Shown piece after piece: positions 15,583 through 45,549 of a DNA stretch of 64,000 nucleotides. The DNA comes from Euglena gracilis. Lineage: Eukaryota. The stretch spans positions 36,255,703-36,319,702 of the forward strand of contig CP154954.1 in assembly GCA_039621445.1 (NCBI GenBank), given 5' to 3'. The first letter of the stretch is position 1. Every line of letters begins with the position of its first letter. The position numbers were made by a program, and so were the translations under genes. Below the pieces are notes generated by a model. That model had not been told where the DNA came from. It saw only the letters and a program-made list of their open reading frames with translations, and ran no database searches.

Positions 15583-16428
15583 CTACCCCCCATTTCGCGT
15601 GCTCGGATATCTGAGTCACCGGAATTTCGCTCATTTTATGACAAAGTGCTTGGTGACAACAAGGAAACCTTGCAAGCATTTTGTACAAGTTTGCTCCAAA
15701 TTAAGGAAATCGTGAATCGGAATGCCCGATCCATGCAAGATGAGGTTTCTCGGTTGGATGGACGAATTTCTGCGTTGTTGGAAAAGCCAACCGCGGAAAC
15801 TTCGCGCACCACCGTGGAAACCCCCACCAAGTCACTCCACCAATTGCAAACCGTCTCAAATGCGGTGAAAGCGCTTGCGGGTCAACTCCGGAATGTGGAG
15901 GAGTCCCAAGGAAATCTTGCCCAAGAATTACACTTGGTTTCTGAAAAGTTGCCACACTTGGAAGATTTTTCCCGTTACCGCAAACGCATTAGGCATTTGG
16001 AGAATGAGGTTGACCGTATTTGCGGCCAACTCCAGTTGGTGGAACATTTGGAAGAAACGGTGCATGACTTGTCCGCGAGTCTGGATAAAATGTCCCCTCC
16101 GATACCGGTTGTGCCACCACCTACCGCGGTAAGCGCTGCGGTTGGTATTCCAAATGTCCCGGAATCGCGTTCTCAAATTACCATTTCCGGAGTAGGAATC
16201 CCTACATCCACCGCGAATTTGGTACAACCACCAGCGAAAACGCGAATTGTACCACCTTTGCATTTGCCAACACCACAAACTCATTTTTCACAACACATTT
16301 CCGATGAGGAAAATGACCCCCCACTCGAAAATTCGAGTCTCCACCAAGAAATTCAACATTCCAACCTTGTACGAGGTATGAGCCAACACCCCACACCTGG
16401 TATTGGTCATGTGTCGCATTCGCGATGA
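15583..16428 (+). CDS. ORF1b: in-frame continuation of ORF1a (coiled coil, then Pro-rich linker)
   Basis: Same frame as ORF1a with no stop from 15583 to 16425. Overlaps the gag frame, which is open from 16382. Confidence 0.65.
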   Translation, partial: LPPISRARISESPEFRSFYDKVLGDNKETLQAFCTSLLQIKEIVNRNARSMQDEVSRLDGRISALLEKPTAETSRTTVETPTKSLHQLQTVSNAVKALAGQLRNVEESQGNLAQELHLVSEKLPHLEDFSRYRKRIRHLENEVDRICGQLQLVEHLEETVHDLSASLDKMSPPIPVVPPPTAVSAAVGIPNVPESRSQITISGVGIPTSTANLVQPPAKTRIVPPLHLPTPQTHFSQHISDEENDPPLENSSLHQEIQHSNLVRGMSQHPTPGIGHVSHSR

Positions 16429-18151: not shown

Positions 18152-19198
18152 GATGAACAGATGGAGGTAAGACCTGATCAACCTTACCCCCCCTGCCCAT
18201 CCGCCTTCACGGTCAGTACCCGGAATTATTTCGGGTCCCCTACCCCCCACTCCACATTTCCGCTCGGAATGCTGAGCAAAGTAGGAAAGGGTTCATGGGA
18301 GAGCTGGCATGCAAACGTATTTCCGCCAGACCCTTCACTTTGCGTACCACCAATGGAATTACTCGTCCAAGCGGAAATCCGCATCCAAAATTTCTCCACT
18401 AAAGTTAAAATTCTCATTGACACTGGTTGTCGCATTGCACTGCTCTTTCGGTTGGGGTTGATACCGACCCCGCTCTTGGTAAGCGCCAAGAAACCGATCA
18501 AAATTACAACCGCGGATAACACCCCCATGTGTGGTGGTGATTTGGGATGTGTGCTCGAGATACTCTTGCCCATCATTCCGAAGCATCACTCACAACCCCC
18601 ACAATTACAACATTTCACCAATATTTGGGGTTACGAGTCCGGAATTCACGGGTCTGACGTAATTTTGGGATACCCATTTTTACGCCAGTACCGATTGGTT
18701 GTGGATTGCCACTCCCACGGTTTGCGCACAGCACCCACCACTTCATTGACACCCAAACCACCATCACCGTTGTCATCCACTATGATGACCACCGCTTTGC
18801 CCACACCGTTACCCACAATGGCAACACCGTTACCCACCACACCAACAACCGTTTTCCACACCCGGGGTACGGAGAAAGCCTCCCCCCTGCCCAATGACAC
18901 ACCAACATGCGTTCCACATGAGGCAGGGCAAGCGAGTAGCGGTACCCCCGCCGTTTCACTGGGTTACAAGACGAAAGCCCAAAGGCCTGAAGTAATTACG
19001 GTGTCGAGTAGTCGCCCAGCTACACCACCACTCCGTTTCCACCAGTTGTGCCGCATCCAGGCACAACTGCACAAGACGTCCCTGATAATGCCATCGACAC
19101 CCACTTTCACGCACACCCGTCACACCATCACACTTCCTTCCAATGTGTGCACTGCAGGAGAATTTCCACCCAATCGGATTTCGATTGTGGATGTTTAG
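18116..19198 (+). CDS. Retropepsin aspartic protease plus Thr/Pro-rich linker
   Basis: ILIDTGC catalytic motif and ILGYPFL C-terminal motif. The true frame probably shifts near 19040. Confidence 0.9.
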   Translation, partial: GSPRSEGTDLWADEQMEVRPDQPYPPCPSAFTVSTRNYFGSPTPHSTFPLGMLSKVGKGSWESWHANVFPPDPSLCVPPMELLVQAEIRIQNFSTKVKILIDTGCRIALLFRLGLIPTPLLVSAKKPIKITTADNTPMCGGDLGCVLEILLPIIPKHHSQPPQLQHFTNIWGYESGIHGSDVILGYPFLRQYRLVVDCHSHGLRTAPTTSLTPKPPSPLSSTMMTTALPTPLPTMATPLPTTPTTVFHTRGTEKASPLPNDTPTCVPHEAGQASSGTPAVSLGYKTKAQRPEVITVSSSRPATPPLRFHQLCRIQAQLHKTSLIMPSTPTFTHTRHTITLPSNVCTAGEFPPNRISIVDV

Positions 19199-20247
19199 TT
19201 CAAAATCCGACACTAATCGCAATTCCGAAAACGGAATCCACCCCCCATGATACACTTGGTTGTAGCCCGCAATGCGCGGAGATACACCGAGTACTCCAAC
19301 AACGCGGATTAGCCTCGTTGTTCGGAAACGCGAAAAGCGCGATTCCTAATTACAATCGCGATCACACTTGGTACGGATTTGATGCGGAATGGGGAAACCC
19401 CCAACCTGTCCAAACTCCCTTGGGATTAACCCTTGTGGTAGTGGAAGACAGCCCGCATGTTTGTGGATCCATTCATTGTGTTTCTACCCTTCAACCCGAA
19501 AATCGGGTGCATGAATACGCGAAACGCGTATGGAATGCTTTCAATTTTGGTCAATATCGCATTTTGGAACGATGGTTTTCCAAAAGGTCGACACTGGCTG
19601 ATTCTTTTGATTTGGCATTGGAAATCGATGCCTTCTCATCCAATGCACATGCCCGTTTGCCACGTCATTGTTCACAACACTCCAACGCATTTGATAAATT
19701 TTGGGGTGATACGGTGTTATGGATGCACCCCCCTTCAAAACTTATCGAATGTGTAGTTGAGAAAATTCTGCGGGATGAAGCCCGTGGAGTTATTCTCATA
19801 CCCATCATTCCGGAAGCGGAATGGTTCCACCAACTATCGTATGTCTGTTTTCATTGGTGGAGTTTACCCACTAATGTACCGATTTTTGAGGATTTTTGTG
19901 GTAAAATATTACCACCCTTGCAAGAAATCATTTTTCGCGTATGTTTCTTCGATGCATTCGGAATGTCCGAATTTGCGGTGCCGAGGAAGCTCGGTAGCCC
20001 CAGGGATACCCTGGCGGTTTCCGCGGTCATCGAGAGTGCAGGTCAGCATCCTAAATCAGCCGAATTCTGTTCGCGGATCACCCGCGAATTTCACGGTGTG
20101 CTGGAAAATCGGGTATATGTGTGCGACGTCGACCCCGCGATACGCGGTCCGTTCGGTGTTTGTAAGATCGAGCTGAAGGAAGGAGCCAAAGCAATGCACC
20201 GGAAAATTTTTTCGTTGTTCGGGAGAACGCGAACAAGCTCTCAATGA
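19048..20247 (+). CDS. Pol segment with Cys/His cluster, N6-adenine DNA methyltransferase-like (Dam/DIRS-MT type) domain at about 19550-19960, and pre-RT region
   Basis: LEIDAFSS..N.RLPR.CS...NAF...W....LWMHPPSKLI..VVEKI......VILIP.....WF matches the motif I to motif IV (xPPx) pattern of DIRS/phage Dam-like MTases. The following CKIELKEGAK is a typical pre-RT sequence. Confidence 0.75.
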   Translation: MPHPGTTAQDVPDNAIDTHFHAHPSHHHTSFQCVHCRRISTQSDFDCGCLVQNPTLIAIPKTESTPHDTLGCSPQCAEIHRVLQQRGLASLFGNAKSAIPNYNRDHTWYGFDAEWGNPQPVQTPLGLTLVVVEDSPHVCGSIHCVSTLQPENRVHEYAKRVWNAFNFGQYRILERWFSKRSTLADSFDLALEIDAFSSNAHARLPRHCSQHSNAFDKFWGDTVLWMHPPSKLIECVVEKILRDEARGVILIPIIPEAEWFHQLSYVCFHWWSLPTNVPIFEDFCGKILPPLQEIIFRVCFFDAFGMSEFAVPRKLGSPRDTLAVSAVIESAGQHPKSAEFCSRITREFHGVLENRVYVCDVDPAIRGPFGVCKIELKEGAKAMHRKIFSLFGRTRTSSQ

Positions 20248-20269: not shown

Positions 20270-23215
20270 CGCAAGTGGACTGTACCCTTGAAAAGCGAGT
20301 GGACGTCCCAGGCATTTGTTGTTCCTAAACCCCCAGACCCCTCAGGTCAGAAGAAATGGAGGCTGGTGCTGGATTACCGGTACCTGAACTCCCAAACAAG
20401 GGATGATCCCTTCCCGCTCCCCCTGATCGAGGATTTGATCACCAAACAATCGGAAAACCGGTTGTGGTCAATTTTCGATCTGGAGGACGGTTTTCACCAA
20501 ATGCACTTACACCCTGACTCCCAACCATACACGGCATTCGTGACATCCAAGGGTGTGTACCAATGGACGGTACTCCCCATGGGTGTTAAGAATGGCCCAG
20601 CCATGTTTCAGCGCATGATACAATGGGTTCTACGCGATTTACCGTTTGCCATTGTGTACATTGATGATGTGCTGCTGGGAACACCACCACCATCCGCAAA
20701 ATCGAGCGAGGATATCCTCGTCACACACTTCCACCATGTTTGCGCGGTATTAACCGCTTTTCAAAAACATGTGCTTTTCGCGAAAGGCGCGAAAATGCAT
20801 TTGTTTCGGATACTTATAAAATTTTGTGGTCACATCCTCAGCAATGGACAGCGGAAAGCCGCTCCGAGTAAACTCGAAGCCATTAAGAAATGGACCCCTG
20901 AGGTAATCAAAACGATTACTCACCTCAAAGGATTTTTGGGATTAGCCCAATACTACGCGATTTATATGAAGGACTTCGCGAAAATCGCGGTGCCCCTCAC
21001 CAAACAGCTCAAAAACCGGGCTGTTGACAACACCAAAGTCATTTGGGATGACCAAATGCGCGAGGCCCTTGAGAAAATCAAGGCTTTGCTTTTGGAGAAT
21101 GTTGTCCTCGAAATCGCGGACCCGTACAAATCATACGTGTTGGAAGTCGACAGCAGCGATTACGCTGTTGGCGGAGTTCTTAGCCAGCATAACGCGGCGA
21201 ATGAGCTCCGACCTGTGGCTTTCTTCAGCAGAAAGTTACAGGGCGACGATGGAAAAGGTCAAGTCAAATGGAGTATACGCGAGAAGGAAACCTACGCAAT
21301 CGTGCTTATACTCCAGAAATTCCGAAGCTGGGTAGCCAGCAGTCTCGTCCAGATCCTCGTCAAGACCGACCATGAGAGTCTCCAACACTGGTACACCGAG
21401 GATTTGAACAAGGCCATGTCATCGGTCGGAAGGCGATGCAGATGGCATGAGTTCTTGAGTCAATTCAACCTTGTGGTTATCTATACCCCTGGTCACACAC
21501 AAAAAGTAGCGGATCCGCTCAGTCGGGCCCCTTGGTATTACCCTGGGAACCCGGATGAGGGAGACGCGACTTTTCATGGAAGTCAGGAAGCTGACGACTA
21601 CGCACGTCGAAACGACGCTGCGGATAATCTTTTGGATTCTTTTCCCGTTTCACAACTATTCCTGGTCGCACCAGTGCGAGGAAGGCGCCGACGTGGAAGC
21701 ACGTCCGGGCCCCGGCGTATTACGCGCACGGAGTCCCCTTCCCCACTGTTCTTTCGCGAATGGGATTATAGTCGTGACCCGGTGTATGACACCATTGTCA
21801 CCAGACTTCGTAATGGCGAAGTGCTGGACAATTACACTCTTTCACCTTTACGGTTGGTTTTTCGCAATGAATCGGGTTACAAATATTGTATCCCCCAGGA
21901 CCTGGTTGATGATGTGATTTTGTGTTATCACAACCATGGTCACCCTGGGGCCCCCAAACTTCTTTCGTTGGTGGGCCGCAGGTATTGCACAACCCTGAGC
22001 GAGAAAGAGCTTTACTCACGCTGTTTGCGAATAGCGCAACGGTGTCAAATTTGTCAAGCGGTAAAACCCCGCAGAGGTACCCCCCCTGGTACGATGGACT
22101 TTTTCCCCGTACCCCCTGACATTTTTACATCCCTCTGCATGGATTTTCTGGAATTAGAACCGTGCAAAGGAACAGACGACAAAATTTACGATTACGTTTT
22201 TGTTGTCGTCTGCAGGCTGAGTGGGTACATTGTAGCCATTCCATGCCAGAAGTCAGGGTTGACTGCCCAAAGTTTGGCAGCTATATTTTTGGAGAAATGC
22301 ATTTGCTTGATGGGTTTACCGAATGAAATCGTGAGTGATCAAGACCATTTGATTTCTTCAAGGTTTTTCACCACTTTGTGCGGTTTACTCGGAATCGAGC
22401 AACATTTTTCCATTATATACCGACCCAAAGGCAATGGTAGAGCCGAGGCAGCCGTGAAATCCGTCGTGAATATGCTTCGCCTTTCACTGGCTGACTCGCG
22501 CAGCAACTGGATATCAGTTCTACCATGGTCTTTGTTTTATATCAATACCCTACCAGGGTTGGTTTTACCTCACTCCCCCTATAAATTAGTTTTCGGACGG
22601 GACCCTCCGGCCATAGGGGATGTCCCTTCGGAGAGACCCGCCCGAACGAGTGTCAGTTGCGAGACCTGGTTTGCGGAAGTAGAAAATCTACGTTCTGCAG
22701 TCCAGAAGCGCGTGACTGATATTCATGCAGCAAAACGGAAATCGTTTTTGCAGAATTTCAAGTCACCTGTTTACAATCCCGGTGACCGCGTGTGGGTACG
22801 GAATAGCCGTACTCGCATGCAGTCTTCCAAGCTGGACCCCCTCTGGCTCGGCCCCTGTGAAATCCTAGAAAGACTAGGTACCAGCGGGCGTTACAAGGTT
22901 GCATTACCGAATGGTGTTGAGGACGTTCATATGGACGACTTCAAACCATACCTGTCGCCACCGGATGGGAAACCCATCCCGTGTTTGCACTTCAAACCCC
23001 GTTCCAGATTACCTGAGACGGACGACTTTGTAGTCGATAAAATTATCGATCACAAAATCGACAAAGGTATGCACCTTTGGAAGGTCCGCTGGAAAGGGTA
23101 TGGGCCCGAGGAGGACACTTGGGAGCCAGCAACCAGTTTTGTTGGGTATGTCCAGCAAGATTGGAAGCTTTGGAACAAGAAGCATAACATTGATGTTTCC
23201 ATGACAAACTTTTGA
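20270..23215 (+). CDS. pol: Pol: reverse transcriptase, RNase H, integrase, chromodomain
   Basis: WRLVLDYRYLN, DLEDGFHQ, LPMGVKNGP, YIDD (RT); VDSSDYAVGGVL, REKE, TDHESL, ADPLSR (RNase H); HNHGHPG..CQIC, MDF, SDQD, GNGRAE (HHCC/DDE integrase); WLGP GPY/F-like motif. Confidence 0.97.
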   Translation, partial: RKWTVPLKSEWTSQAFVVPKPPDPSGQKKWRLVLDYRYLNSQTRDDPFPLPLIEDLITKQSENRLWSIFDLEDGFHQMHLHPDSQPYTAFVTSKGVYQWTVLPMGVKNGPAMFQRMIQWVLRDLPFAIVYIDDVLLGTPPPSAKSSEDILVTHFHHVCAVLTAFQKHVLFAKGAKMHLFRILIKFCGHILSNGQRKAAPSKLEAIKKWTPEVIKTITHLKGFLGLAQYYAIYMKDFAKIAVPLTKQLKNRAVDNTKVIWDDQMREALEKIKALLLENVVLEIADPYKSYVLEVDSSDYAVGGVLSQHNAANELRPVAFFSRKLQGDDGKGQVKWSIREKETYAIVLILQKFRSWVASSLVQILVKTDHESLQHWYTEDLNKAMSSVGRRCRWHEFLSQFNLVVIYTPGHTQKVADPLSRAPWYYPGNPDEGDATFHGSQEADDYARRNDAADNLLDSFPVSQLFLVAPVRGRRRRGSTSGPRRITRTESPSPLFFREWDYSRDPVYDTIVTRLRNGEVLDNYTLSPLRLVFRNESGYKYCIPQDLVDDVILCYHNHGHPGAPKLLSLVGRRYCTTLSEKELYSRCLRIAQRCQICQAVKPRRGTPPGTMDFFPVPPDIFTSLCMDFLELEPCKGTDDKIYDYVFVVVCRLSGYIVAIPCQKSGLTAQSLAAIFLEKCICLMGLPNEIVSDQDHLISSRFFTTLCGLLGIEQHFSIIYRPKGNGRAEAAVKSVVNMLRLSLADSRSNWISVLPWSLFYINTLPGLVLPHSPYKLVFGRDPPAIGDVPSERPARTSVSCETWFAEVENLRSAVQKRVTDIHAAKRKSFLQNFKSPVYNPGDRVWVRNSRTRMQSSKLDPLWLGPCEILERLGTSGRYKVALPNGVEDVHMDDFKPYLSPPDGKPIPCLHFKPRSRLPETDDFVVDKIIDHKIDKGMHLWKVRWKGYGPEEDTWEPATSFVGYVQQDWKLWNKKHNIDVSMTNF
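23021..23190 (+). other. Chromodomain at the integrase C-terminus
   Basis: FVVDKIIDHK...WKVRWKGYGPEEDTWEP, with aromatic cage residues F, W and Y present. Confidence 0.93.
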
Positions 23216-26784: not shown

Positions 26785-26878
26785 TCGCAGTTGTCACCCC
26801 ACGTGGCACTGCGGCCAGTTCTTCCACTGCTGTGACGGATACTGCCAGCCAACGGACGAAACAACTGAAGTTGCAGCC

Positions 26879-28852: not shown

Positions 28853-29661
28853 TGCCGAAAGGGCATTACCAAGCCCATGTAAGGTAAGCGCCTTCATGGA
28901 GCTCATACACTATATATATACACTGGAGGCGGAAATCGCGAAACAGCCCTGGGATGAACCTGGGTCTGTGTCCTTCAGCGCTCTGGATGGAAGCATCCAA
29001 GAGCCCCCCCCCCCATGCCAACCCATAATACCAGTGACCATGCGGACGGAAACCGTCTGCGGGAGGTAATCGCCTCTTATTGCGTCGTGAAGGAGCTACT
29101 GCTGTGAAGACCTTGGCAGCCGGGAAACCTGGCAAGCCGCTAAGTGACGCACAGCACACAGCGCGCACGCCGTAATAATAGGCCAACTTGTCACTTTTCG
29201 GCCCTAAGGCCCTTAAGGCTGCCAGACAGCAAAAATTCTGTTCCGGCCTAAGCCAACCCCCCTCTCCTCCCTACTTTCCGCCCACCCCCGCAAAGCTGTC
29301 GCCGGCAGTCGGTTTTGTAAGTAGGCTTTTGTTTCCTAGTGCGGATATGACCGCCTAGGAGCACTATCCGGGTATGACCAGGATAGGAGCCTGCCCCCCC
29401 CTTCCACACCTCTCCCCTCGGGTTTTCAGCGAATCGCTTGACCAACCCCGCGTGCCTTTGGCGCACCCAAAGTGGGTGGATGGGATACTTTGACAGGAAA
29501 CCTGCCAAGCCCCAATTTCCCACAGTGGGCTTTTTCGCACCCCTAAGCCGAAACGGCTAATAGGTAACCGCGATAAGCGGTAACCTTTTGCGCGTTTTCG
29601 GGTTTTTGGGTTGCGCCACTGTGGAGAAAAGAGATCCGTGTTCTGGAAAACAAAACCCGAT

Positions 29662-29732
29662 CAGGGCTGTGTCTGAAATCCTGACGGGACCTGGGATGAC
29701 CTGGTCCAAGAAGGAAATCGGGCATAGCCCTG
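29662..29732 (+). other. Long RNA hairpin immediately 5' of the PPT
   Basis: CAGGGCUGUGUCUGA pairs with UCGGGCAUAGCCCUG (15 bp, 3 G-U), followed by UCCU/AGGA and GGACC/GGUCC. Confidence 0.75.
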
Positions 29733-29741
29733 GGAGGGGGA
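29732..29741 (+). promoter_or_regulatory. Polypurine tract
   Basis: GGGAGGGGGA directly abuts the 3' LTR. Confidence 0.9.
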
Positions 29742-30152
29742 TGTGTACCAGGCACGATCCCAGCTCTGTGGGAAACCTGCAGAGTCTGGATCCGTCACAA
29801 TCTGACGGCTGTGATGAACACAGCCTGACGATCGTGGCAGATCCTATGGGATTTAGCGACACGTATCACACGTGCCTGCGTGATCTCTTTTCCTCACAGG
29901 TGGTATTCTATTCTTCACATTCTGATTGTTTTGAAGTAAGAGGATTAACCTCTGAAAAGACTGAACTCGACTGTGAAGGAAAATCCTTCTACAGCGCCTT
30001 GCTTTGTGCTCTGCCTTAGCATAGGGGAATTGGGAAAAGGGCTTTTGTTACTCCAAGGATTTTTACTCACCTAAGTAGGTGCGCACCAGGAGAAAGCGAA
30101 ACAGGCTTTTCCGGGACGAAAGGGGTCAAAGGGAAGTCCTTGGACGTACACT
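29742..30152 (+). repeat. 3' LTR (411 bp)
   Basis: 408/411 identical to 13373-13783. Confidence 0.96.
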
Positions 30153-33100
30153 AAATGTCCCCGGAATGGTCGAATGCACCCGTCTAAATTTGCTGATTTC
30201 TTGCAATCAACATTCCCGCTGCATGTTTTTCTTCCCATTAAACCACGACAATCATGAAACCAACGGGTCCCCTGACTTTGGAGGCCTCCTGGAACACCCA
30301 TTCGGTTACTCGGAGTAAGGCACAATTTGGTCCATTTTTACATGGTAACCTGGGATGACCTGGTAAATGTCCCCGGAATGGTCGAATGCACCCATCTAAA
30401 TGTGCTCATTTCTTGCAATCTACATTCCCGCTGCATGTTGTTCTTACTATTAAACCACGACAATCATGAAACCAACGGGTCCCCTGACTTTGGAGGCCTC
30501 CTGGAACACCCATTCGGTTACTCGGAGTAAGGCACAATTTGGTCCATTTTTACATGGTAACCTGGGCTGGCCTGGAAAATGTCCCCCGGAATGGTCGAAT
30601 GCACCCATCTAACTGTGCTCACTTCCTGCAACCAACATTCCCGCTGCATGTTTTTCTTACTATTAAACCATGACAATCATGAAACCAACGGGTCCCCTGA
30701 CTTTGGAGGCCTCCTGGAACACCCATTCGGTTACTCGGAGTCAAGCACAATTTAGTCCATTTTTACATGGTAACCTGGGATGACCTGGTAAATGTCCCCG
30801 GAATGGTCGAATGCACCCATCTAAATGTGCTCATTTCTTGCAACAAACATTCCCAATGCATGTTTTTCTTACCATTAAACCACGACAATCATGAACCCAA
30901 CGGGTCCCCTGACTTTGGAGGCCTCCTGGAACACCCATTCGGTTACTCGGAGTAAGGCCCAGTTGGGTCCATTTTTACATGGTAACCTGGGCTGACCTGG
31001 TCAACGTCCCCCGGAATGGTCGAATGCACCCATCTAAATGTGCTCATTTCTTGCAACAAACATTCCCAATGCATGTTTTTCTTACCATTAAACCACGACA
31101 ATCATGAACCCAACGGGTCCCCTGACTTTGGAGGCCTCCTGGAACACCCATTCGGTTACTCGGAGTAAGGCCCAGTTGGGTCCATTTTTACATGGTAACC
31201 TGGGCTGACCTGGTCAACGTCCCCCGGAATGGTCGAATGCACCCATCTAAATGTGCTCATTTCTTGCAACAAACATTCCCAATGCATGTTTTTCTTACCA
31301 TTAAACCACGACAATCATGAAACCAACGGGTCCCCTGACTTTGGAGGCCTCCTGGAACACCCATTCGGTTACTCGGAGTAAGGCACAATTTGGTCCATTT
31401 TTACGTGGTAACCTGGGATAACCTGGTAAATGTCCCAGGAATGGTCGAATGCACCCATCTAAATGTGTTGATTTCTTGCAACCAAGATTCACGCTGCATG
31501 TTTTTCTTACCATTAAACCACGATAATCATGAAACCAACGGGTCCCCTGACTTTGGAGGCCTCTTGGAACACCCATTCGGTTACTCGCAGTAAGGCCCAA
31601 TCTGGTCCATTTTTACATAGTAACCTGGGCTGACCTGGTAAATGTCCCCCGGAATGGTCGAATGCACCCATCTAAATGTGCTGATTTCTTGCAACCAACA
31701 TTCCCGCTGCATGTTTTTCTTACCATTAAACCACGACAATCATGAACCCAAAGGGACCCCTGACTTTGGAGGCCTCCTGGAACACCCATTCGGTTACTCG
31801 GAGTCAAGCACAATTTGGTCCATTTTTACATGGTAACCTGGGATGACCTGGTAAATGTCCCCGGAATGGTCGAATGCACCCATCTAAATGTGCTCATTTC
31901 TTGCAACAAACATTCCCAATGCATGTTTTTCTTACCATTAAACCACGACAATCATGAACCCAACGGGTCCCCTGACTTTGGAGGCCTCCTGGAACACCCA
32001 TTCGGTTACTCGGAGTAAGGCCCACATTGGTTCCATTTTTACATGGTAACCTGGGCTGACCTGGTCAACGTCCCCCGGAATGGTCGAATGCACCCATCTA
32101 AATGTGCTCATTTCTTGCAACAAACATTCCCAATGCATGTTTTTCTTACCATTAAACCACGACAATCATGAACCCAACGGGTCCCCTGACTTTGGAGGCC
32201 TCCTGGAACACCCATTCGGTTACTCGGAGTAAGGCCCAGTTGGGTCCATTTTTACATGGTAACCTGGGCTGACCTGGTCAACGTCCCCCGGAATGGTCGA
32301 ATGCACCCATCTAAATGTGCTCATTTCTTGCAACCAACATTCCAGCTGCATGTTTTTCTTACCATTAAACCACGACAATCATGAAACCAACGGGTCCCCT
32401 GACTTTGGAGGCCTCCTGGAACACCCATTCGGTTACTCGGAGTCAAGCACAATTTGGTCCATTTTTACATGGTAACCTGGGATGACCTGGTAAATGTCCC
32501 CGGAATGGTCGAATGCACCCATCTAAATGTGCTCATTTCTTGCAACAAACATTCCCAATTCATGTTTTTCTTACCATTAAACCACGACAATCATGAACCC
32601 AACGGGTCCCCTGACTTTGGAGGCCTCCTGGAACACCCATTCGGTTACTCGGAGTCAAGCACAATTTGGTCCATTTTTACATGGTAACCTGGGATGACCT
32701 GGTCAACGTCCCCCGGAATGGTCGAATGCACCCATCTAAATGTGCTCATTTCTTGCAACAAACATTCCCAATGAGTGTTTTTCTTACCATTAAACCACGA
32801 CAATCATGAACCCAACGGGTCCCCTGACTTTGGAGGCCTCCTGGAACACCCATTCGGTTACTCGGAGTAAGGCCCAGTTGGGTCCATTTTTACATGGTAA
32901 CCTGGGCTGACCTGGTCAACGTCCCCCGGAATGGTCGAATGCACCCATCTAAATGTGCTCATTTCTTGCAACCAACATTCCAGCTGCATGTTTTTCTTAC
33001 CATTAAACCACGACAATCATGAAACCAACGGGTCCCCTGACTTTGGAGGCCTCCTGGAACACCCATTCGGTTACTCGGAGTAAGGCCCAGTTGGGTCCAT

Positions 33101-36100
33101 TTTTGCATGGTAACCTGGGCTGACCTGGTCAACGTCCCCCGGAATGGTCGAATGCACCCATCTAAATGTGCTCATTTCTTGCAACAAACATTCCCAATGC
33201 ATGTTTTTCTTACCATTAAACCACGACAATCATGAACCCAACGGGTCCCCTGACTTTGGAGGCCTCCTGGAACACCCATTCGGTTACTCGGAGTAAGGCC
33301 CAGTTGGGTCCATTTTTACATGGTAACCTGGGCTGACCTGGTCAACGTCCCCCGGAATGGTCGAATGCACCCATCTAAATGTGCTCATTTCTTGCAACCA
33401 ACATTCCAGCTGCATGTTTTTCTTACCATTAAACCACGACAATCATGAAACCAACGGGTCCCCTGACTTTGGAGGCCTCCTGGAACACCCATTCGGTTAC
33501 TCGGAGTCAAGCACAATTTGGTCCATTTTTACATGGTAACCTGGGATGACCTGGTAAATGTCCCCGGAATGGTCGAATGCACCCATCTAAATGTGCTCAT
33601 TTCTTGCAACAAACATTCCCAATGCATGTTTTTCTTACCATTAAACCACGACAATCATGAACCCAACGGGTCCCCTGACTTTGGAGGCCTCCTGGAACAC
33701 CCATTCGGTTACTCGGAGTAAGGCCCACATTGGTTCCATTTTTACATGGTAACCTGGGCTGACCTGGTCAACGTCCCCCGGAATGGTCGAATGCACCCAT
33801 CTAAATGTGCTCATTTCTTGCAACAAACATTCCCAATGCATGTTTTTCTTACCATTAAACCACGACAATCATGAACCCAACGGGTCCCCTGACTTTGGAG
33901 GCCTCCTGGAACACCCATTCGGTTACTCGGAGTAAGGTCCATTTTTACATGGTAACCTGGGCTGACCTGGTCAACGTCCCCCGGAATGGTCGAATGCACC
34001 CATCTAAATGTGCTCATTTCTTGCAACCAACATTCCAGCTGCATGTTTTTCTTACCATTAAACCACGACAATCATGAAACCAACGGGTCCCCTGACTTTG
34101 GAGGCCTCCTGGAACACCCATTCGGTTACTCGGAGTCAAGCACAATTTGGTCCATTTTTACATGGTAACCTGGGATGACCTGGTAAATGTCCCCGGAATG
34201 GTCGAATGCACCCATCTAAATGTGCTCATTTCTTGCAACAAACATTCCCAATTCATGTTTTTCTTACCATTAAACCACGACAATCATGAACCCAACGGGT
34301 CCCCTGACTTTGGAGGCCTCCTGGAACACCCATTCGGTTACTCGGAGTCAAGCACAATTTGGTCCATTTTTACATGGTAACCTGGGATGACCTGGTCAAC
34401 GTCCCCCGGAATGGTCGAATGCACCCATCTAAATGTGCTCATTTCTTGCAACAAACATTCCCAATGAGTGTTTTTCTTACCAGTAAACCACGACAATCAT
34501 GAACCCAACGGGTCCCCTGACTTTGGAGGCCTCCTGGAACACCCATTCGGTTACTCGGAGTAAGGCCCAGTTGGGTCCATTTTTACATGGTAACCTGGGC
34601 TGACCTGGTCAACGTCCCCCGGAATGGTCGAATGCACCCATCTAAATGTGCTCATTTCTTGCAACCAACATTCCAGCTGCATGTTTTTCTTACCATTAAA
34701 CCACGACAATCATGAAACCAACGGGTCCCCTGACTTTGGAGGCCTCCTGGAACACCCATTCGGTTACTCGGAGTAAGGCCCAGTTGGGTCCATTTTTACA
34801 TGGTAACCTGGGCTGACCTGGTCAACGTCCCCCGGAATGGTCGAATACACCCATCTAAATGTGCTCATTTCTTGCAACAAACATTCCCAATGCATTTTTT
34901 TCTTACCATTAAACCACGACAATCATGAACCCAACGGGTCCCCTGACTTTGGAGGCCTCCTGGAACACCCATTCGGTTACTCGGAGTAAGGCCCAGTTGG
35001 GTCCATTTTTACATGGTAACCTGGGCTGACCTGGTCAACGTCCCCCGGAATGGTCGAATGCACCCATCTAAATGTGCTCATTTCTTGCAACCAACATTCC
35101 AGCTGCATGTTTTTCTTACCATTAAACCACGACAATCATGAAACCAACGGGTCCCCTGACTTTGGAGGCCTCCTGGAACACCCATTCGGTTACTCGGAGT
35201 AAGGCCCAGTTGGGTCCATTTTTACATGGTAACCTGGGCTGACCTGGTCAACGTCCCCCGGAATGGTCGAATGCACCCATCTAAATGTGCTCATTTCTTG
35301 CAACAAACATTCCCAATGTATGTTTTTATTACCATTAAACCACGACAATCATGAACCCAACGGGTCCCCTGACTTTGGAGGCCTCCTGGAACACCCATTC
35401 GGTTACTCGGAGTAAGGCCCAGTTGGGTCCATTTTTACATGGTAACCTGGGATGACCTGGTAAATGTCCCCCGGAATGGTCGAATGCACCCATCTAAATG
35501 TGCTCATTTCTTGCAACCAACATTCCCGCTGCATGTTTTTCTTACCATTAAACCACGACAATCATGAAACCAACGGGTCCCCTGACTTTGGAGGCCTCCT
35601 GGAACACCCATTCGGTTACTCGGAGTAAGGCACAATTTGGTCCATTTTTACGTGGTAACCTGGGATGACCTGGTAAATGTCCCCGGAATGGTCGAATGCA
35701 CCCATTAAATGTGCTCATTTCTTGCAACCAACATTCCCGCTGCATGTTTTTCTTACCATTAAACCACGACAATCATGAATCCAACGGGTCCCCTGACTTT
35801 GGAGGCCTCATGGAACACCCATTCGGTTACTCGGGGTAAGGCACAATTTGGTCCATTTTTACACGGTAACCTGGGCTGACCTGGTAAATGTCCCCGGAAT
35901 GGTCGAATGCACCCATCTAAATGTGCTCATTTCTTGCAATCAACATTCCCAATTCATGTTTTTCTTACCATTAAACCACGACAATCATGAACCCAACGGG
36001 TCCCCTGACTTTGGAGGCCTCCTGGAACACCCATTCGGTTACTCGGAGTCAAGCACAATTTGGTCCATTTTTACATGGTAACCTGGGATGACCTGGTCAA

Positions 36101-39100
36101 CGTCCCCCGGAATGGTCGAATGCACCCATCTAAATGTGTTGATTTCTTGCAACCAAGATTCACGCTGCATGTTTTTCTTACCATTAAACCACGATAATCA
36201 TGAAACCAACGGGTCCCCTGACTTTGGAGGCCTCCTGGAACACCCATTCGGTTACTCGCAGTAAGGCACAATTTGGTCCATTTTTACATGGTAACCTGGG
36301 CTGACCTGGTAAATGTCCCCGGAATGGTCGAATGCACCCATTAAATGTGCTCATTTCTTGCAGTCAACATTCCCGCTGCATGTTTTTCTTACCATTAAAC
36401 CACGACAATCATGAATCCAACGGGTCCCCTGACTTTGGAGGCCTCCTGGAACACCCATTCGGTTACTCGGGGTAAGGCACAATTTGGTCCATTTTTACAT
36501 GGTAACCTGGGCTGACCTGGTAAATGTCCCCGGAATGGTCGAATGCACCCATTAAATGTGCTCATTTCTTGCAATCAACATTCCCGCTGCATGTTTTTCT
36601 TACCATTAAACCACGACAATCATGAAACCAACGGGTCCCCTGACTTTGGAGGCCTCCTGGAACACCCATTCGGTTACTCGGAGTCAAGCACAATTTGGTC
36701 CATTTTTACATGGTAACCTGGGATGACCTGGTAAATGTCCCCGGAATGGTCGAATGCACCCATCTAAATGTGCTAATTTCTTGCAACAAACATTCCCAAT
36801 GCATGTTTTTCTTACCATTAAACCACGACAATCATGAACCCAACGGGTCCCCTGACTTTGGAGGCCTCCTGGAACACCCATTCGGTTACTCGGAGTAAGG
36901 CCCAGTTGGGTCCATTTTTACATGGTAACCTGGGCTGACCTGGTCAACGTCCCCCGGAATGGTCGAATGCACCCATCTAAATGTGCTCATTTCTTGCAAC
37001 AAACATTCCCAATGCATGTTTTTCTTACCATTAAACCACGACAATCATGAACCCAACGGGTCCCCTGACTTTGGAGGCCTCCTGGAACACCCATTCGGTT
37101 ACTCGGAGTAAGGCCCAGTTGGGTCCATTTTTACATGGTAACCTGGGCTGACCTGGTCAACGTCCCCCGGAATGGTCGAATGCACCCATCTAAATGTGCT
37201 CATTTCTTGCAACCAACATTCCAGCTGCATGTTTTTCTTACCATTAAACCACGACAATCATGAAACCAACGGGTCCCCTGACTTTGGAGGCCTCCTGGAA
37301 CACCCATTCGGTTACTCGGAGTAAGGCACAATTTGGTCCATTTTTACGTGGTAACCTGGGATGACCTGGTAAATGTCCCCGGAATGGTCGAATGCACCCA
37401 TCTAAATGTGCTCATTTCTTGCAACCAAGATTCACGCTGCATGTTTTTCTTACCATTAAACCACGATAATCATGAAACCAACGGGTCCCCTGACTTTGGA
37501 GGCCTCCTGGAACACCCATTCGGTTACTCGCAGTAAGGCCCAATTTGGTCCATTTTTACATAGTAACCTGGGCTGACCTGGTAAATGTCCCCCGGAATGG
37601 TCGAATGCACCCGTCTAAATGTGCTGATTTCTTGCAACCAACATTCCCGCTGCATGTTTTTCTTACCATTAAACCACGAAAGTCATGAAACCAACGGGCC
37701 CCCTGACTCCTGGAACACCCATTCGGTTACTCGGAGTAAGGCCCAATTTGGTCCATTTTTACATGGTAACCTGGGATGACCTGGTAAATGTCCCCGGAAT
37801 GGTCGAATGCACCCATCTAAATGTGCTCATTTCTTGCAACCAACGTTCCTGCTGCATGTTTTTCTTACCATTAAACCACGACAATCATGAACCCAACGGG
37901 CCCCCTGACTTTGGAGGCCTCCTGGAACACCCATTCGGTTACTCGGAGTAAGGCACAATTTGGTCCATTTTTACATGGTAACCTGGGCTGACCTGGTAAA
38001 TGTCCCCGGAATGGTCGAATGCACCCATTAAATGTGCTCATTTCTTGCAGTCAACATTCCCGCTGCATGTTTTTCCTACCATTAAACCACGACAATCATG
38101 AATCCAACGGGTCCCCTGACTTTGGAGGCCTCCTGGAACACCCATTCGGTTACTCGGGGTAAGGCACAATTTGGTCCATTTTTACATGGTAACCTGGGCT
38201 GACCTGGTAAATGTCCCCGGAATGGTCGAATGCACCCATTAAATGTGCTCATTTCTTGCAATCAACATTCCCGCTGCATGTTTTTCTTACCATTAAACCA
38301 CGACAATCATGAACCCAACGGGTCCCCTGACTTTGGAGGCCTCCTGGAACACCCATTCGGTTACTCGGAGTCAAGCCCAGTTGGGTCCACTTTTACATGG
38401 TAACCTGGGCTGACCTGGTCAACGTCCCCCGGAATGGTCGAATGCACCCATCTAAATGTGCTCATTTCTTGCAACCAACATTCCAGCTGCATGTTTTTCT
38501 TACCATTAAACCACGACAATCATGAACCCAACGGGTCCCCTGACTTTGGAGGCCTCCTGGAACACCCATTCGGTTACTCGGAGTAAGGCACAATTTGGTC
38601 CATTTTTACGTGGTAACCTGGGATGACCTGGTAAATGTCCCCGGAATGGTCGAATGCACCCATCTAAATGTGTTGATTTCTTGCAACCAAGATTCACGCT
38701 GCATGTTTTTCTTACCATTAAACCACGATAATCATGAAACCAACGGGTCCCCTGACTTTGGAGGCCTCCTGGAACACCCATTCGGTTACTCGCAGTAAGG
38801 CCCAATTTGGTCCATTTTTACATAGTAACCTGGGCTGACCTGGTAAATGTCCCCCGGAATGGTCGAATGCACCCATCTAAATGTGCTGATTTCTTGCAAC
38901 CAACATTCCCGCTGCATGTTTTTCTTACCATTAAACCACGACAATCATGAAACCAACGGGCCCCCTGACTTTGGAGGCCTCCTGGAACACCCATTCGGTT
39001 ACTCGGGGTAAGGCACAATTTGGTCCATTTTTACATGGTAACCTGGGCTGACCTGGTAAATGTCCCCGGAATGGTCGAGTGCAACCATCTAAATGTGCTC

Positions 39101-42100
39101 ATTTCTTGCAACAAACATTCCCAATGCATGTTTTTCTTACCATTAAACCACGACAATCATGAACCCAACGGGTCCCCTGACTTTGGAGGCCTCCTGGAAC
39201 ACCCATTCGGTTACTCGGAGTAAGGCCCAGTTGGGTCCATTTTTACATGGTAACCTGGGCTGACCTGGTAAGTGTCCCCCGGAATGGTCGAATGCACCCA
39301 TCTAAATGTGCTCATTTCTTGCAACCAACATTCCCAATGCATGTTTTTCTTAAAATTAAACCACGACAATCATGAAACCAACGGGTCCCCTGACTTTGGA
39401 GGCCTCCTGGAACACCCATTCGATTACTCGGAGTAAGGCCCAATTTGGTCCATTTTTACACGGTAACCTGGGCTGACCTGGTAAATGTCCCCCGGAATGG
39501 TCGAATGCACCCATCTAAATGTGCTCATTTCTTGCAACCAACATTACCGCTGCATGTTTTTCTTACCATTAAACCACGACAATCATGGAAGCAACGGGTC
39601 CCCTGACTTTGGAGGCCTCCTGGAACACCCCTTCGATTACTCGGAGTAAGGCCCAATTTGGTCCATTTTTACATGGTAACCTGGGCTGACCTGGTAAATG
39701 TCCCCCGGAATGGTCGAATGCACCCATCTAAATGTGCTGATTTCTTGCAACCAACAATCCCGCTGCATGTTTTTCTTCCCATTAAACCACGACAATCATG
39801 AACCCAACGGGTCCCCTGACTTTGGAGGCCTCCTGGAACACCCATTCGGTTACTCGGAGTAAGGCCCAATTTGGTCCATTTTTACATGGTAACCTGGGCT
39901 GACCTGGTAAATGTCCCCCGGAATGGTCGAATGCACCCATCTAAATGTGCTCATTTCTTGCAACCAACATTCCCAATGCATGTTTTTCTTACCATTAAAC
40001 CACGACAATCATGAACCCAACGGGTCCCCTGACTTTGGAGGCCTCCTGGAACACCCATTCGGTTACTCGGAGTAATGCCCAATTTGGTCCATTTTTACAT
40101 GTAACCTGGGCTGACCTGGTAAATGTTCCCCGGAATGGTCGAATGCACCCATCTAAATGTGCTGATTACTTGCAACCATCATTCCCGATGCATGTTTTTC
40201 TTACCATTAAACCACGACAATCATGAACCCAACGGGTCCCCTGACTTTGGAGGCCTCCTGGAACACCCATTCGGTTACTCGGAGTAAGGCCCAGTTGGGT
40301 CCATTTTTACATGGTAACCTGGGATGACCTGGTCAACGTCCCCCGGAATGGTCGAATGCACCCATCTAAATGTGCTCATTTCTTGCAACCAACATTCCCG
40401 CTGCATGTTTTTCTTACCATTAAACCACGACAATCATGGAACCAACGGGTCCCCTGACTTTGGAGGCCTCCTGGAACACCCATTCGGTTACTCGGAGTAA
40501 GGCCCAATTTGGTCAATTTTACATGGTAACCTGGGCTGACCTGGTAAATGTTCCCCGGAATGGACGAATGCACCCATCTAAATGTGCTCATTTCTTGCAA
40601 CCAACATTCCCGCTGCATGTTTTTCTTCCCATTAAAACACGACAGTCATGGAACCAACGGGTCCCCTGACTTTGGAGGCCTCCTGGAACACCCATTCGGT
40701 TACTCGGAGTAATGCCCAATTTGGTCCATTTTTACATGTAACCTGGGCTGACCTGGTAAATGTTCCCCGGAATGGTCGAATGCACCCATCTAAATATGCT
40801 GAATTCTTGCAACCAACATTCCCGCTGCATGTCTTCCTTACAATTAAACCACCACGATCATGAAACCAACGGGTCCCCGGACTTTGGAGGCCTCCTGGAA
40901 CACCCATTCGGTTACTCGGAGTAATGCCCAATTTGGTCCATTTTTACATGTAACCTGGGCTGACCTGGTAAATGTTCCCCGGAATGGTCAAATGCACCCA
41001 TCTGAATGTGCTCATTTCTTGCAACCAACATTCCCGCTGCATGTTTTTCTTACCATTAAACCACGACAATCATGGAACCAACGGGTCCCCTGACTTTGGA
41101 GGCCTCCTGGAACACCCATTCGGTTACTCGGAGTAATGCCCAATTTGGTCCGTTTTTACATGTAACCTGGGCTGACCTGGTAAATGTCCCCGGAATGGTC
41201 GAATGCACCCATCTAAATGTGCTCATTTCTTGCAATCAACATTCCCGCTGCATGTTTTTCTTACCATTAAACCACGACAATCATGAACCCAACGGGTCCC
41301 CTGACTTTGGAGGCCTCCTGGAACACCCATTCGGTTACTCGGAGTAAGGCCCAGTTGGGTCCATTTTTACATGGTAACCTGGGATGACCTGGTAAATGTT
41401 CCCCGGAATGGTCGAATGCACCCATCTAAATGTGCTCATTTCTTGCAACCATCATTCCCGATGCATGTTTTTCTTACCATTAAACCACGACAATCATGAA
41501 CCCAACGGGTCCCCTGACTTTGGAGGCCTCCTGGAACACCCATTCGGTTACTCGGAGTAAGGCCCAGTTGGGTCCATTTTTACATGGTAACCTGGGATGA
41601 CCTGGTCAACGTCCCCCGGAATGGTCGAATGCACCCATCTAAATGTGCTCATTTCTTGCAACCAACATTCCCGCTGCATGTTTTTCTTACCATTAAACCA
41701 CGACAATCATGGAACCAACGGGTCCCCTGACTTTGGAGGCCTCCTGGAACACCCATTCGGTTACTCGGAGTAAGGCCCAATTTGGTCAATTTTACATGGT
41801 AACCTGGGCTGACCTGGTAAATGTTCCCCGGAATGGACGAATGCACCCATTAAATGTGCTCATTTCTTGCAACCAACATTCCCGCTGCATGTTTTTCTTC
41901 CCATTAAAACAATACAGTCATGAAACCAACGGGTCCCCTGACTTTGGAGGCCTCCTGGAACACCCATTCGGCTACTCGGAGTAAGGCCCAGTTGGATCCA
42001 TTTATAGATGGGAACCTGGGCTGACCTGGTAAGTGTTCCCCGGAATGGTCGAATGCACCCATCTAAATGTGCTGATTTCTTGCAACCAACATTCCCGCTG

Positions 42101-45100: not shown

Positions 45101-45489
45101 ACCACGACAATCATGAAACCAACGGGTCCCCTGACTTTGGAGGCCTCCTGGAACACCCATTCGGTTACTCGGAGTATGGCCGAATTTGGTCCATTTTTAC
45201 ATGGTAACCTGGGCTGACCTGGTAAATGTCCCCCGCAACGGTCGAATGCACCCATCTAAATATGCTGATTTCTTGCAACCAACATTCCCGCTGCATGTCT
45301 TTCTTACAATTAAACCACGACGGTCACGAAACCAACGGGTCCCCGGACTTTGGAGGCCTCCTGGAACACCCATTCGGTTACTCGGAGTAAGGCACAATTT
45401 GGTCCATTTTTACATGGTAACCTGGGCTGACCTGGTAAATGTCCCCCGCAACGGTCGAATGCACCCATCTAAATATGCTGATTTCTTGC

Positions 45490-45502
45490 GGGGGGGGGGG
45501 GT

Positions 45503-45538
<36 letters not shown>

Positions 45539-45546
45539 CGGGGGGG
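45490..45546 (+). repeat. Poly-G tract (about 57 nt) inserted in a monomer
   Basis: TTCTTGC-(G)n-AAACC-AACCAAGATT; absent from the paralogous monomer at about 47670. Confidence 0.9.
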
Positions 45547-45549
45547 AAA

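What the first reader, a model, noticed from the sequence alone, without database searches (positions are those of the whole stretch)
29662..29741. Pre-PPT RNA hairpin displays a 17-18 nt copy of the satellite sequence that abuts the insertion site
Seen: ACCTGGGATGACCTGGTC (29689-29706) forms the tip of a long hairpin. It matches 16/17 the satellite bases 13351-13367 directly 5' of the TSD, 17/17 the variant at 30348-30364, and 18/18 the variant at 32687-32704. All three non-Watson-Crick positions in the basal stem are G-U, which suggests selection at RNA level. A rough uniform-base estimate for a 16/17 match to this exact 17-mer in a 16-kb element is about 1e-4, or about 1e-2 for anywhere in the monomer. 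Inference: a possible homology- or guide-assisted satellite targeting signal, a shared protein-binding site, or a relic of satellite origin or capture.
Basis: partly seen in the sequence, partly recalled or inferred. Interest (0 to 1): 0.85.

Follow-up and report, generated by a model that had tools for sequence, protein, structure and literature searches.

The report
Retrotransposon hairpin tip matches host satellite
A very stable RNA hairpin beside the plus-strand primer site of a retrotransposon carries 18 letters that also occur in the satellite DNA it landed in, but the match is short, only marginally beyond chance, and could not be tied to targeting.

Summary
A 16.8-kb Ty3/gypsy chromovirus (LTRs 13373-13783 and 29742-30152, 408/411 identical, 5-bp duplication AAATG) sits in a 213-bp satellite. 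Its 71-nt hairpin (29662-29732) is the most stable 72-nt window of the element on the RNA-sense strand. The 18 apical letters are exact in 5 of 219 satellite slots and 16/17 to the consensus that abuts the duplication.

The targeting reading is not established. The match is isolated, with no longer homology (nhmmer E=1, blastn E=0.39). Of 1000 dinucleotide shuffles, 8 reach 18 letters. The 17-mer is mostly base-paired, with five open letters. Contigs from public runs show 47-69 family copies per run diverging inside the 18-mer (29699|29700). One subfamily changes three of the five loop letters while keeping the stems.

The integrase chromodomain already gives an ordinary route into heterochromatic satellite. 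One positional oddity remains: this insertion phase and orientation is the only one of 426 that places a 7-nt mirror of the LTR end against the junction. With a single insertion and no genome held, insertion phases could not be mapped.

Verdict: real hairpin; its link to the satellite is unproven and most likely coincidental.

The parts
1..13372 (+). 213-bp satellite array, left of the insertion
   Evidence: TRF: period 213, 62.8 copies, 92% matches
13351..13367 (+). satellite 17-mer (consensus form, 16/17 to the hairpin tip) that abuts the target-site duplication
13362..13383 (.). 7-nt inverted repeat CCTGGTA / TACCAGG, symmetric about the flank|LTR junction (13372|13373)
   Evidence: read; only 1 of 426 phases/orientations of the consensus monomer gives a mirror run of 6 or more
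13368..13372 (+). target-site duplication AAATG, left copy (a 6-bp TAAATG reading cannot be excluded)
13373..13783 (+). 5' LTR
   Evidence: 411-nt alignment to the 3' LTR, 408 identical, no gaps (family D3)
13784..13799 (+). primer-binding-site-like stretch starting TGGTAGCAGA directly after the LTR (assignment to initiator tRNA-Met is recalled, not tested)
   Evidence: print-out
16382..18115 (+). gag-like open frame with zinc knuckle
   Evidence: PF00098 E 1.2e-06
19012..20247 (+). open frame with weak DNA adenine methyltransferase (Dam) likeness
   Evidence: PF05869 E 2.5e-04, 21.2 bits, below the 28.1 cutoff; PF05869 recurs among precomputed domains of pol relatives
20270..23215 (+). pol open frame: reverse transcriptase, RNase H, integrase, C-terminal chromodomain
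   Evidence: PF00078 2.8e-24, PF17919 1e-23, PF00665 1.4e-09, PF00385 5.2e-10
29599..29699 (+). variable block of the 3' untranslated region (holds the hairpin's 5' arm and the first 11 letters of the 18-mer)
   Evidence: 29 of the 37 listed changed letters of RNA contig record 9 lie here; 47-69 contigs per DNA run have loose ends before 29700
29662..29732 (+). 71-nt hairpin, RNA-sense strand
29689..29706 (+). 18-mer at the hairpin apex, identical to minority satellite variants; 29695-29699 is the 5-nt loop
29732..29741 (+). polypurine tract GGGAGGGGGA, directly before the 3' LTR
29742..30152 (+). 3' LTR
30153..30157 (+). target-site duplication AAATG, right copy
30153..64000 (+). 213-bp satellite array with a 426-bp higher-order period, right of the insertion; holds all 5 exact 18-mers and 21 of the 22 exact 17-mers

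Best explanation
The hairpin is a genuine cis-acting structure of the genomic RNA of a young LTR retrotransposon: a Ty3/gypsy chromovirus of the kind that also carries a Dam-like domain. It ends on the first base of the polypurine tract. I take its role to lie in reverse transcription or RNA handling around the plus-strand primer site.

Shown: exceptional stability, the position, and an advantage of the RNA-sense strand through G-U pairs. In a diverged copy, changes within the apical part of the hairpin avoid the paired positions. Inferred: the function.

The 17-18-letter identity of its apex with the satellite is most likely a coincidence between two short inverted-repeat motifs (ACCTGG-N5-CCTGGT), not a targeting device. 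The element's presence in satellite is explained more economically by its integrase chromodomain, which in related elements tethers integration to H3K9-methylated heterochromatin.
For: Structure:
- MFE -46.7 kcal/mol, z -6.74.
- Rank 1 of 4178 windows.
- + strand -45.4 against - strand -31.0 kcal/mol.
- The hairpin is kept in a 301-nt fold, z -8.62.

Element:
- LTRs 408/411 identical with an AAATG duplication.
- RT, RNase H, integrase and chromodomain are all found.
- Aromatic residues F, W and Y sit at the three cage positions, read by eye against the Y-W-Y rule quoted in PMC3605345 (passages read).
- The chromodomain to H3K9me targeting rule is quoted in PMC12477314 from Gao et al. 2008 (passages read; the original was not read).

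Match is weak:
- No longer homology: nhmmer E 1, blastn E 0.39.
- 8 of 1000 shuffles reach 18 or more.
- The consensus form, 126 of 219 slots, differs at 2 of 18; the exact form is in 5 of 219.
- The slot is no better conserved than the rest of the monomer: 0.970 against 0.963, 58th percentile.

Tip is not a free guide:
- Opening it costs 13.2 kcal/mol.

Tip is not family-wide:
- 69, 47 and 57 contigs in runs X1, X2 and X3 fit from 29700 rightward and run on leftward with unlike letters (agreement 0.53-0.56).
- A variant with T>A, G>T, A>C at 29697-29699 is in 11-12, 4-6 and 7-10 contigs of X1-X3 and in the one RNA contig of X19.
- X19 also holds the satellite (89-nt contig, 1 other letter).
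- In that RNA contig, positions 16-38 of the hairpin carry 5 changes at 12 unpaired positions and 0 at 11 paired ones. This is my hand count from the table; hypergeometric p about 0.024 by my arithmetic.
Against: - The coincidences stack. About 1% for the match is multiplied by the chance that it abuts the duplication: 1/213 for this exact arrangement, about 12/213 if either end may abut either side within 1 nt. That gives roughly 4e-5 to 1e-3 (my arithmetic, post hoc).
- The actual phase and orientation is the single one of 426 with a mirror run of 6 or more to the LTR start.
- Among contigs that do align over 29697-29699 in the DNA runs, the window's letters make up about 96-97% of summed depth. 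So the tip is well kept within its own subfamily.
- The stems, which hold 12 of the 17 matching letters, are unchanged in the diverged RNA contig.
- The basal stem is not clearly maintained there. It has 5 changes on its 5' side: 2 wobble-compatible, and 3 that break pairs unless compensated. At most 2 unlisted changes remain in the whole contig (37 of its 39 are listed).
- Chromodomain targeting is inferred from relatives, not shown for this element.
Confidence: 0.5

Rival explanations
1. Protein-mediated, motif-directed integration. The inverted-repeat motif at the end of each monomer would be recognised by a host DNA-binding factor that also binds the element's own copy. Alternatively the integrase itself would recognise it because it mimics the subterminal LTR sequence. 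Either way, strand transfer would fall exactly at the motif's edge.
For: - The satellite 17-mer ends at the first base of the duplication.
- CCTGGTA (13362-13368) mirrors TACCAGG (13377-13383) symmetrically about the junction. This is the only phase and orientation of 426 with a mirror run of 6 or more.
- The tip region also resembles the reverse complement of LTR nt 3-25: 18 of 23 columns, with 43 of 2000 shuffles as good within the last 150 nt.
- Precedent: Tf1/Tf2 LTRs hold a conserved site for Sap1, the factor that also marks Tf1 targets (PMC5371812, passages read).
Against: - There is one insertion only.
- The satellite slot is not specially conserved.
- Three of the five loop letters differ in a subfamily present beside the same satellite.
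- Over the whole internal region, the likeness of the tip to the LTR start is ordinary: 51 of 60 shuffled queries score as high somewhere.
- The U5 side shows no mirror likeness (4 of 15, by eye).
- Both patterns were noticed post hoc.
Confidence: 0.2
2. Short capture. Reverse transcriptase would have switched templates at the CCTGGT microhomology onto a co-packaged satellite transcript and back again, writing about 11 satellite letters into the variable block just upstream of the polypurine tract.
For: - The 18-mer straddles the border between the variable and the family-wide block. Contigs break at 29699|29700, so the last 7 letters are common to the family and the first 11 are not.
- Satellite contigs occur in an RNA library, X19 records 13-16, though the tool warns this does not show transcription.
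- A hypervariable 3' untranslated region linked to satellites is on record for plant elements (Macas et al. 2009; title seen only in the reference lists of PMC12477314 and PMC11963269).
Against: - It needs two switches within 11 nt.
- There is no homology beyond the 18 letters.
- The letters match a minority satellite variant, not the consensus.
- Alternative tips of other copies are known only as 30-letter consensus strings with 0.53-0.56 agreement.
Confidence: 0.15
3. Nucleic-acid guide. The hairpin apex, as RNA or as cDNA, would pair with the satellite and steer or prime insertion by homology.
For: - Same-sense identity of 17-18 letters next to the insertion site.
- A homology-using, integrase-independent route exists for Tf1, through single-strand annealing at the PBS and PPT ends (PMC11042837; abstract and section 8 read).
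Against: - The 17-mer is paired in the hairpin, with 5 open letters and 13.2 kcal/mol to open it.
- It lies about 450 bp inside the cDNA, not at an end.
- The insertion has a clean 5-bp duplication and full LTR ends, as integrase makes.
- The flanks do not resemble the PPT or PBS, unlike the Tf1 annealing events (read).
- The flanking monomer differs from the tip at 1 of 17.
Confidence: 0.05
4. Common descent. The satellite would have arisen from tandem repeats in the variable 3' untranslated region of a related subfamily, and the 17-mer would be what is still recognisable.
For: - The match lies in a variable pre-PPT block, the region named as a satellite source in plants (Macas et al. 2009, title only).
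- By eye, the satellite shares with the tip the four differences that separate the tip from the reverse complement of the LTR start (alignments).
Against: - The monomer profile against the whole element gives nothing beyond the 17 letters: nhmmer E 1, with other hits at E 1.1-8 elsewhere.
- There are no tandem repeats in the 3' untranslated region of this copy. TRF at score 200 or more reports only the satellite.
- The 30-letter strings of other copies upstream of 29700 do not resemble the monomer (by eye).
Confidence: 0.05

Closest known systems
Chromoviruses (Ty3/gypsy with an integrase chromodomain) that integrate into heterochromatin; centrophilic retrotransposons in satellite arrays
   Same: Same domain order and C-terminal chromodomain. 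The insertion is young and sits inside a satellite array. The 2026 centromere atlas preprint reports satellite-embedded elements as younger than others (10.64898/2026.09.17.752431, passages read).
   Different: Targeting by the chromodomain is inferred here, not shown. Such targeting acts on chromatin and does not predict a fixed monomer phase.
Tf1/Tf2 of fission yeast with Sap1
   Same: The element carries a copy of the DNA motif that also marks its targets, and integration falls at a fixed short distance from the motif (PMC5371812, passages read).
   Different: There the motif is in the LTR and the factor is known. Here the copy is in a pre-PPT hairpin, no factor is known, and there is only one insertion.
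[quoted passage not shown] 2009)
   Same: A variable block directly upstream of the polypurine tract, with a sequence link to a satellite.
   Different: The link here is 17-18 letters, with no tandem repeats in the element and no monomer-length homology. The paper itself was not read; only its title was seen in reference lists.
DAM-LTR retrotransposons (bioRxiv 10.64898/2026.05.21.726589)
   Same: An LTR element with a chromodomain and a Dam-like domain. The preprint reports chromodomain-containing LTR elements as 30.9% of DAM-carrying elements (abstract and section 6 read).
   Different: The Dam hit in this copy is below Pfam's cutoff. The preprint says nothing about pre-PPT hairpins in the parts read.
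RNA-guided mobile elements (group II intron retrohoming; IS110 bridge RNA). Recalled, not looked up.
   Same: The idea that a structured RNA of the element carries letters matching the target.
   Different: In those systems the matching letters are unpaired loops and the enzyme is built to use them. Here the letters are mostly paired and the enzyme is a retroviral-type integrase.

Membership tests
Ty3/gypsy LTR retrotransposon, chromovirus | Two LTRs flanked by a short target-site duplication | tested here: met
   411-nt LTRs, 408 identical; AAATG on both sides
Ty3/gypsy LTR retrotransposon, chromovirus | Domain order RT - RNase H - integrase | tested here: met
   Residues 19-189, 259-399 and 541-719 of the 981-aa frame
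Ty3/gypsy LTR retrotransposon, chromovirus | Chromodomain at the integrase C-terminus | tested here: met
   PF00385 E 5.2e-10 at residues 920-955
Ty3/gypsy LTR retrotransposon, chromovirus | PBS after the 5' LTR and polypurine tract before the 3' LTR | tested here: met
   TGG... at 13784 and GGGAGGGGGA at 29732-29741; the tRNA identity was not tested
Group I chromodomain (H3K9me-binding type) | Three aromatic cage residues | tested here: inconclusive
   F, W and Y at the expected places, read by eye against the rule quoted in PMC3605345; no alignment or structure was made
Satellite born from a retrotransposon 3' untranslated region | Monomer-length homology between the satellite and the element's 3' region, or tandem copies inside the element | tested here: not met
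   nhmmer E 1 and blastn E 0.39, 17 letters only; no tandem array in the element
Motif-tethered integration (Tf1/Sap1-like) | Insertions cluster at a fixed distance from the motif | not testable with these tools
   One insertion in the window, no genome held
Motif-tethered integration (Tf1/Sap1-like) | A protein binds both the element's copy and the target motif | not testable with these tools
   Needs experiments
RNA-guided target recognition | Target-matching letters are accessible (unpaired) in the RNA | tested here: not met
   Only 29692, 29695-29699 and 29702 are unpaired; opening the 17-mer costs 13.2 kcal/mol
RNA-guided target recognition | Guide letters covary with target flanks across relatives | not testable with these tools
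   No relatives' DNA with flanks was obtained
Known RNA families (Rfam 15) | Match to a curated covariance model | tested here: not met
   0 matches at E up to 1 in 29000-30200

The most novel reading that the evidence does not exclude
Integration of this chromovirus subfamily is phase-specific within the 213-bp monomer. The 17-22-bp inverted-repeat motif at the monomer's end would be read as a landing mark. Subfamilies with other hairpin tips would then land elsewhere, making the tip a swappable address label.
Probability: 0.13. Interest if true: 0.8.

Novelty: new member of a known kind. Interest (0 to 1): 0.35.

Why it matters
How retrotransposons find centromeric and other satellite DNA is an open question. 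The known answers are protein-chromatin tethers. A sequence label carried by the element that matches the monomer next to its landing site would be a different, programmable principle.

The present data do not show that. They show a real and unusually strong RNA structure at the plus-strand primer site of a little-studied element class, the Dam-carrying chromoviruses. They also show a short satellite match whose position is odd enough to justify one cheap test in the full assembly.

Tried and rejected
- **Whole-genome search.** No genome is held for this window.
- **Earlier findings of the scan.** All four look-ups were empty: by place, by sequence, by relatives and by words.
- **Metagenome scan.** A 21-letter PPT/LTR-border pattern gave one hit, L001. 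On reading, it is an unrelated contig with a chance match.
- **Other collections.**
  - The pol protein in viral contigs and in genome contigs gave pattern hits but no relative.
  - A 22-letter pattern in genome contigs gave 0.
- **Protein search through the hairpin.** I searched with the stop-free frame that runs through the hairpin (P0122), hoping that called ORFs of other copies would reveal their tips. There were no hits at 'near' or 'shorter' lengths.
- **Depth profile of the laid contigs.** The bin 29650-29684 is 8-12 times lower than the next bin in X1-X3. I do not use this as evidence, because the tool states that contig depth cannot rank parts of a stretch.
- **Junction use.** The rows shown do not allow a count of LTR ends that continue into satellite (873 loose-end rows and 97,332 pieces are not shown).
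  - Two X19 contigs continue past 30152 with non-satellite letters.
  - One X19 contig enters 29742 from non-satellite letters.
  - None of these could be told apart from internal or read-through sequence.
- **Tip against 5' leader pairing** (cyclisation, or a Ty3-like bipartite primer site; PMC5371799 passages read). The duplex is -26.0 kcal/mol, and 35 of 300 shuffled tips do as well. Rejected.
- **Rfam.** Nothing.
- **Palindrome preference of LTR integrases.** Reported as weak: 5.5 against 5.4 nt (PMC6911290, passages read). It is too weak to explain the phase.

Full report
**What is in the window.** The window is a 213-bp satellite. TRF reports 62.8 copies at 1-13373 and 158.4 copies at 30152-64000, the latter with a 426-bp higher-order period. 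A k-mer scan finds a single foreign insertion, 13374-30151.

The insert is an LTR retrotransposon:
- The LTRs are 13373-13783 and 29742-30152, 408 of 411 identical without gaps.
- They are flanked by AAATG on both sides.
- A TGG-initiated primer-binding-like stretch follows the 5' LTR.
- GGGAGGGGGA (29732-29741) precedes the 3' LTR.

Pfam finds the following:
- a zinc knuckle in 16382-18115;
- reverse transcriptase, RNase H, integrase and a C-terminal chromodomain in 20270-23215;
- a sub-threshold Dam methyltransferase hit in 19012-20247.

Relatives of pol are almost all unnamed environmental or assembly proteins. The best is 86% identical, named ones are near 30%, and many carry PF05869. So this is a chromovirus of the Dam-carrying kind described in a 2026 preprint (10.64898/2026.05.21.726589; abstract and section 6 read).

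**The observation.**
- The 18-mer is at 29689-29706.
- It is exact in 5 satellite monomers, all to the right of the element.
- It is 17/17 in 22 monomers.
- The majority form (126 of 219 slots) differs at 2 of 18 letters.
- The monomer that flanks the insertion has that majority form, 16/17.
- The satellite 17-mer ends where the duplication begins.

The hairpin 29662-29732:
- It folds at -46.7 kcal/mol, z -6.74.
- It survives in a 301-nt fold whose z is -8.62.
- It is the most stable of 4178 sliding 72-nt windows of the element on the + strand, with a GC-corrected z of -4.4.
- The basal stem has 12 Watson-Crick and 3 G-U pairs.
- The RNA-sense strand folds 14 kcal/mol better than its complement.

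I accept the hairpin as real and as acting on the RNA-sense strand.

**Is the match more than chance?**
- The 18-mer is the longest exact match between the element and satellite on either strand. The runner-up is 14 letters.
- Dinucleotide shuffles of the element reach 18 or more in 8 of 1000 and 17 or more in 18 of 1000.
- Against the monomer profile or consensus it is the top hit but not significant: nhmmer E 1, blastn E 0.39. Nothing extends beyond the 17 letters.
- The match alone is therefore a roughly 1% event.
- The abutment with the duplication adds a factor of 1/213 to about 12/213, depending on how many arrangements one would have accepted (my arithmetic). All of it is post hoc.

**What the tip is like.**
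- In the fold, the 17-mer is itself a small stem-loop.
- Only 29692, 29695-29699 and 29702 are unpaired.
- Opening the whole 17-mer costs 13.2 kcal/mol.
- It is an imperfect inverted repeat (ACCTGG, five letters, CCTGGT), and so is the satellite slot.
- The satellite slot is no better conserved than the rest of the monomer.

**What other copies show.** No genome is held, so I laid Logan contigs of three DNA runs and one RNA library on 29300-30330. The family is very abundant: 24,360 to 37,757 contigs were laid per DNA run.

Three things can be said from contigs.

1. In each DNA run, 47-69 contigs fit from 29700 rightward and continue leftward with unlike, mutually disagreeing letters (agreement 0.53-0.56). 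Many copies therefore part company with this one inside the 18-mer. Its last 7 letters belong to a block shared by the family. Its first 11 belong to a variable block.

2. Contigs that do span the hairpin exist (for example X1 records 3-5) with 9-11% other letters. Where contigs cover 29697-29699, the window's letters hold about 96-97% of summed depth. The rest is a variant with T>A, G>T, A>C, that is, three of the five loop letters.

3. The one RNA contig that spans the region (X19 record 9) is that variant. Of its 39 changed letters, 37 are listed:
   - 19 lie in 29599-29661, 10 in 29662-29699 and none of the listed ones in 29700-29754.
   - Within the apical part of the hairpin, 5 changes hit 12 unpaired positions and 0 hit 11 paired ones (hand count; p about 0.024 by my arithmetic).
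   - In the basal stem, 2 of 5 changes are wobble-compatible. The other 3 break pairs unless compensated by the at most 2 unlisted changes.
   - The same library holds the satellite (89-nt contig, 1 other letter).

So the apical structure looks constrained while its open letters are not.

**A further pattern, noticed here.**
- The satellite flank CCTGGTA (13362-13368) and the LTR's TACCAGG (13377-13383) form an inverted repeat centred exactly on the junction.
- Across all 426 phases and orientations of the consensus monomer, only the actual one gives a mirror run of 6 or more.
- The tip region also resembles the reverse complement of LTR nt 3-25 (18 of 23 columns).
- That likeness is unusual within the last 150 nt (43 of 2000 shuffles) but ordinary over the whole element (51 of 60 shuffled queries do as well somewhere).
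- The phase coincidence is the same one that makes the tip match 'abut' the duplication, so the two must not be multiplied.
- It does mean that, if the phase is not random, recognition of an LTR-end-like motif by the integrase is at least as good a candidate cause as the hairpin tip.

**Mechanism.**

The best-supported reading (0.5) has three parts:
- The hairpin is a cis-acting RNA structure at the plus-strand primer site.
- The satellite identity is coincidental.
- Satellite residence follows from the chromodomain. This domain has aromatic residues at all three cage positions by eye. In related elements it binds H3K9-methylated chromatin (PMC12477314 and PMC3605345, passages read, citing Gao et al. 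2008).

Satellite-embedded, young LTR elements are common across eukaryotes (10.64898/2026.09.17.752431, passages read).

Rivals:
- Motif-tethered integration in the manner of Tf1 and Sap1, where the LTR itself holds the Sap1 site (PMC5371812), or LTR-end mimicry: 0.2.
- Capture of about 11 satellite letters by template switching at the CCTGGT microhomology: 0.15.
- A nucleic-acid guide: 0.05. This is disfavoured by the pairing of the tip, its internal position in the cDNA, the clean 5-bp duplication, and the lack of the PBS/PPT flank likeness that marks the integrase-independent annealing route of Tf1 (PMC11042837, abstract and section 8 read).
- Descent of the satellite from a variable 3' region: 0.05. 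This is disfavoured by the absence of any longer homology.

**What could not be done.**
- Insertions could not be mapped, because there is one in the window and no genome.
- No DNA of relatives was obtained.
- No covariation test on an alignment was possible.
- Rfam has no match.
- The tip does not pair with the 5' leader beyond chance.

**Verdict.** The hairpin is real and notable. The satellite link is an intriguing but single-case coincidence that the available evidence leans against. It is cheap to settle in the full assembly.

Noticed in passing
window 19012-20247: Open frame between gag and pol with a sub-threshold Dam (N6-adenine methyltransferase) hit. PF05869 is listed for many pol relatives, and three relatives (P0088, P0090, P0094) also list a C5 cytosine methyltransferase domain. 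This fits the DAM-LTR and dual-methylation elements of a 2026 preprint.
   Followed up: partly
window 23265-28852: Three long overlapping open frames downstream of pol (602, 640 and 705 aa stop to stop). They are G+C-rich (0.55-0.59) with strong A-over-T skew and no Pfam family at E up to 0.01. This explains the element's unusual 16.8-kb length.
   Followed up: no
window 14002-16428: Two open frames upstream of the zinc-knuckle frame give only weak coiled-coil-type Pfam hits (NPV_P10, Laminin_II and others), all below cutoff.
   Followed up: no
window 13362-13383: A 7-nt inverted repeat (satellite CCTGGTA and LTR TACCAGG) lies symmetric about the 5' junction. It is the only phase and orientation of 426 with a mirror run of 6 or more.
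   Followed up: partly
window 29633-29650 with 29745-29760: In the 301-nt fold, a stretch upstream of the hairpin pairs with the first bases of the 3' LTR, so the hairpin and the polypurine tract sit inside a longer closed domain.
   Followed up: no
window 1-13372 versus 30153-64000: The two sides of the insertion differ in satellite make-up. The right side has a 426-bp higher-order period and holds 21 of the 22 'GATG' 17-mers and all 17 of the single-variant 18-mers ending in C. The left side is a plain 213-bp array.
   Followed up: partly
window 30251: In runs X2 and X3, 19 contigs each leave the satellite behind 30251 for one and the same unrelated sequence (agreement 0.94-0.95). This suggests a recurrent junction of the satellite with another repeat at that monomer position.
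   Followed up: no
window 52874-53246: Two copies of a 187-bp shortened monomer (97% matches) lie within the array.
   Followed up: no
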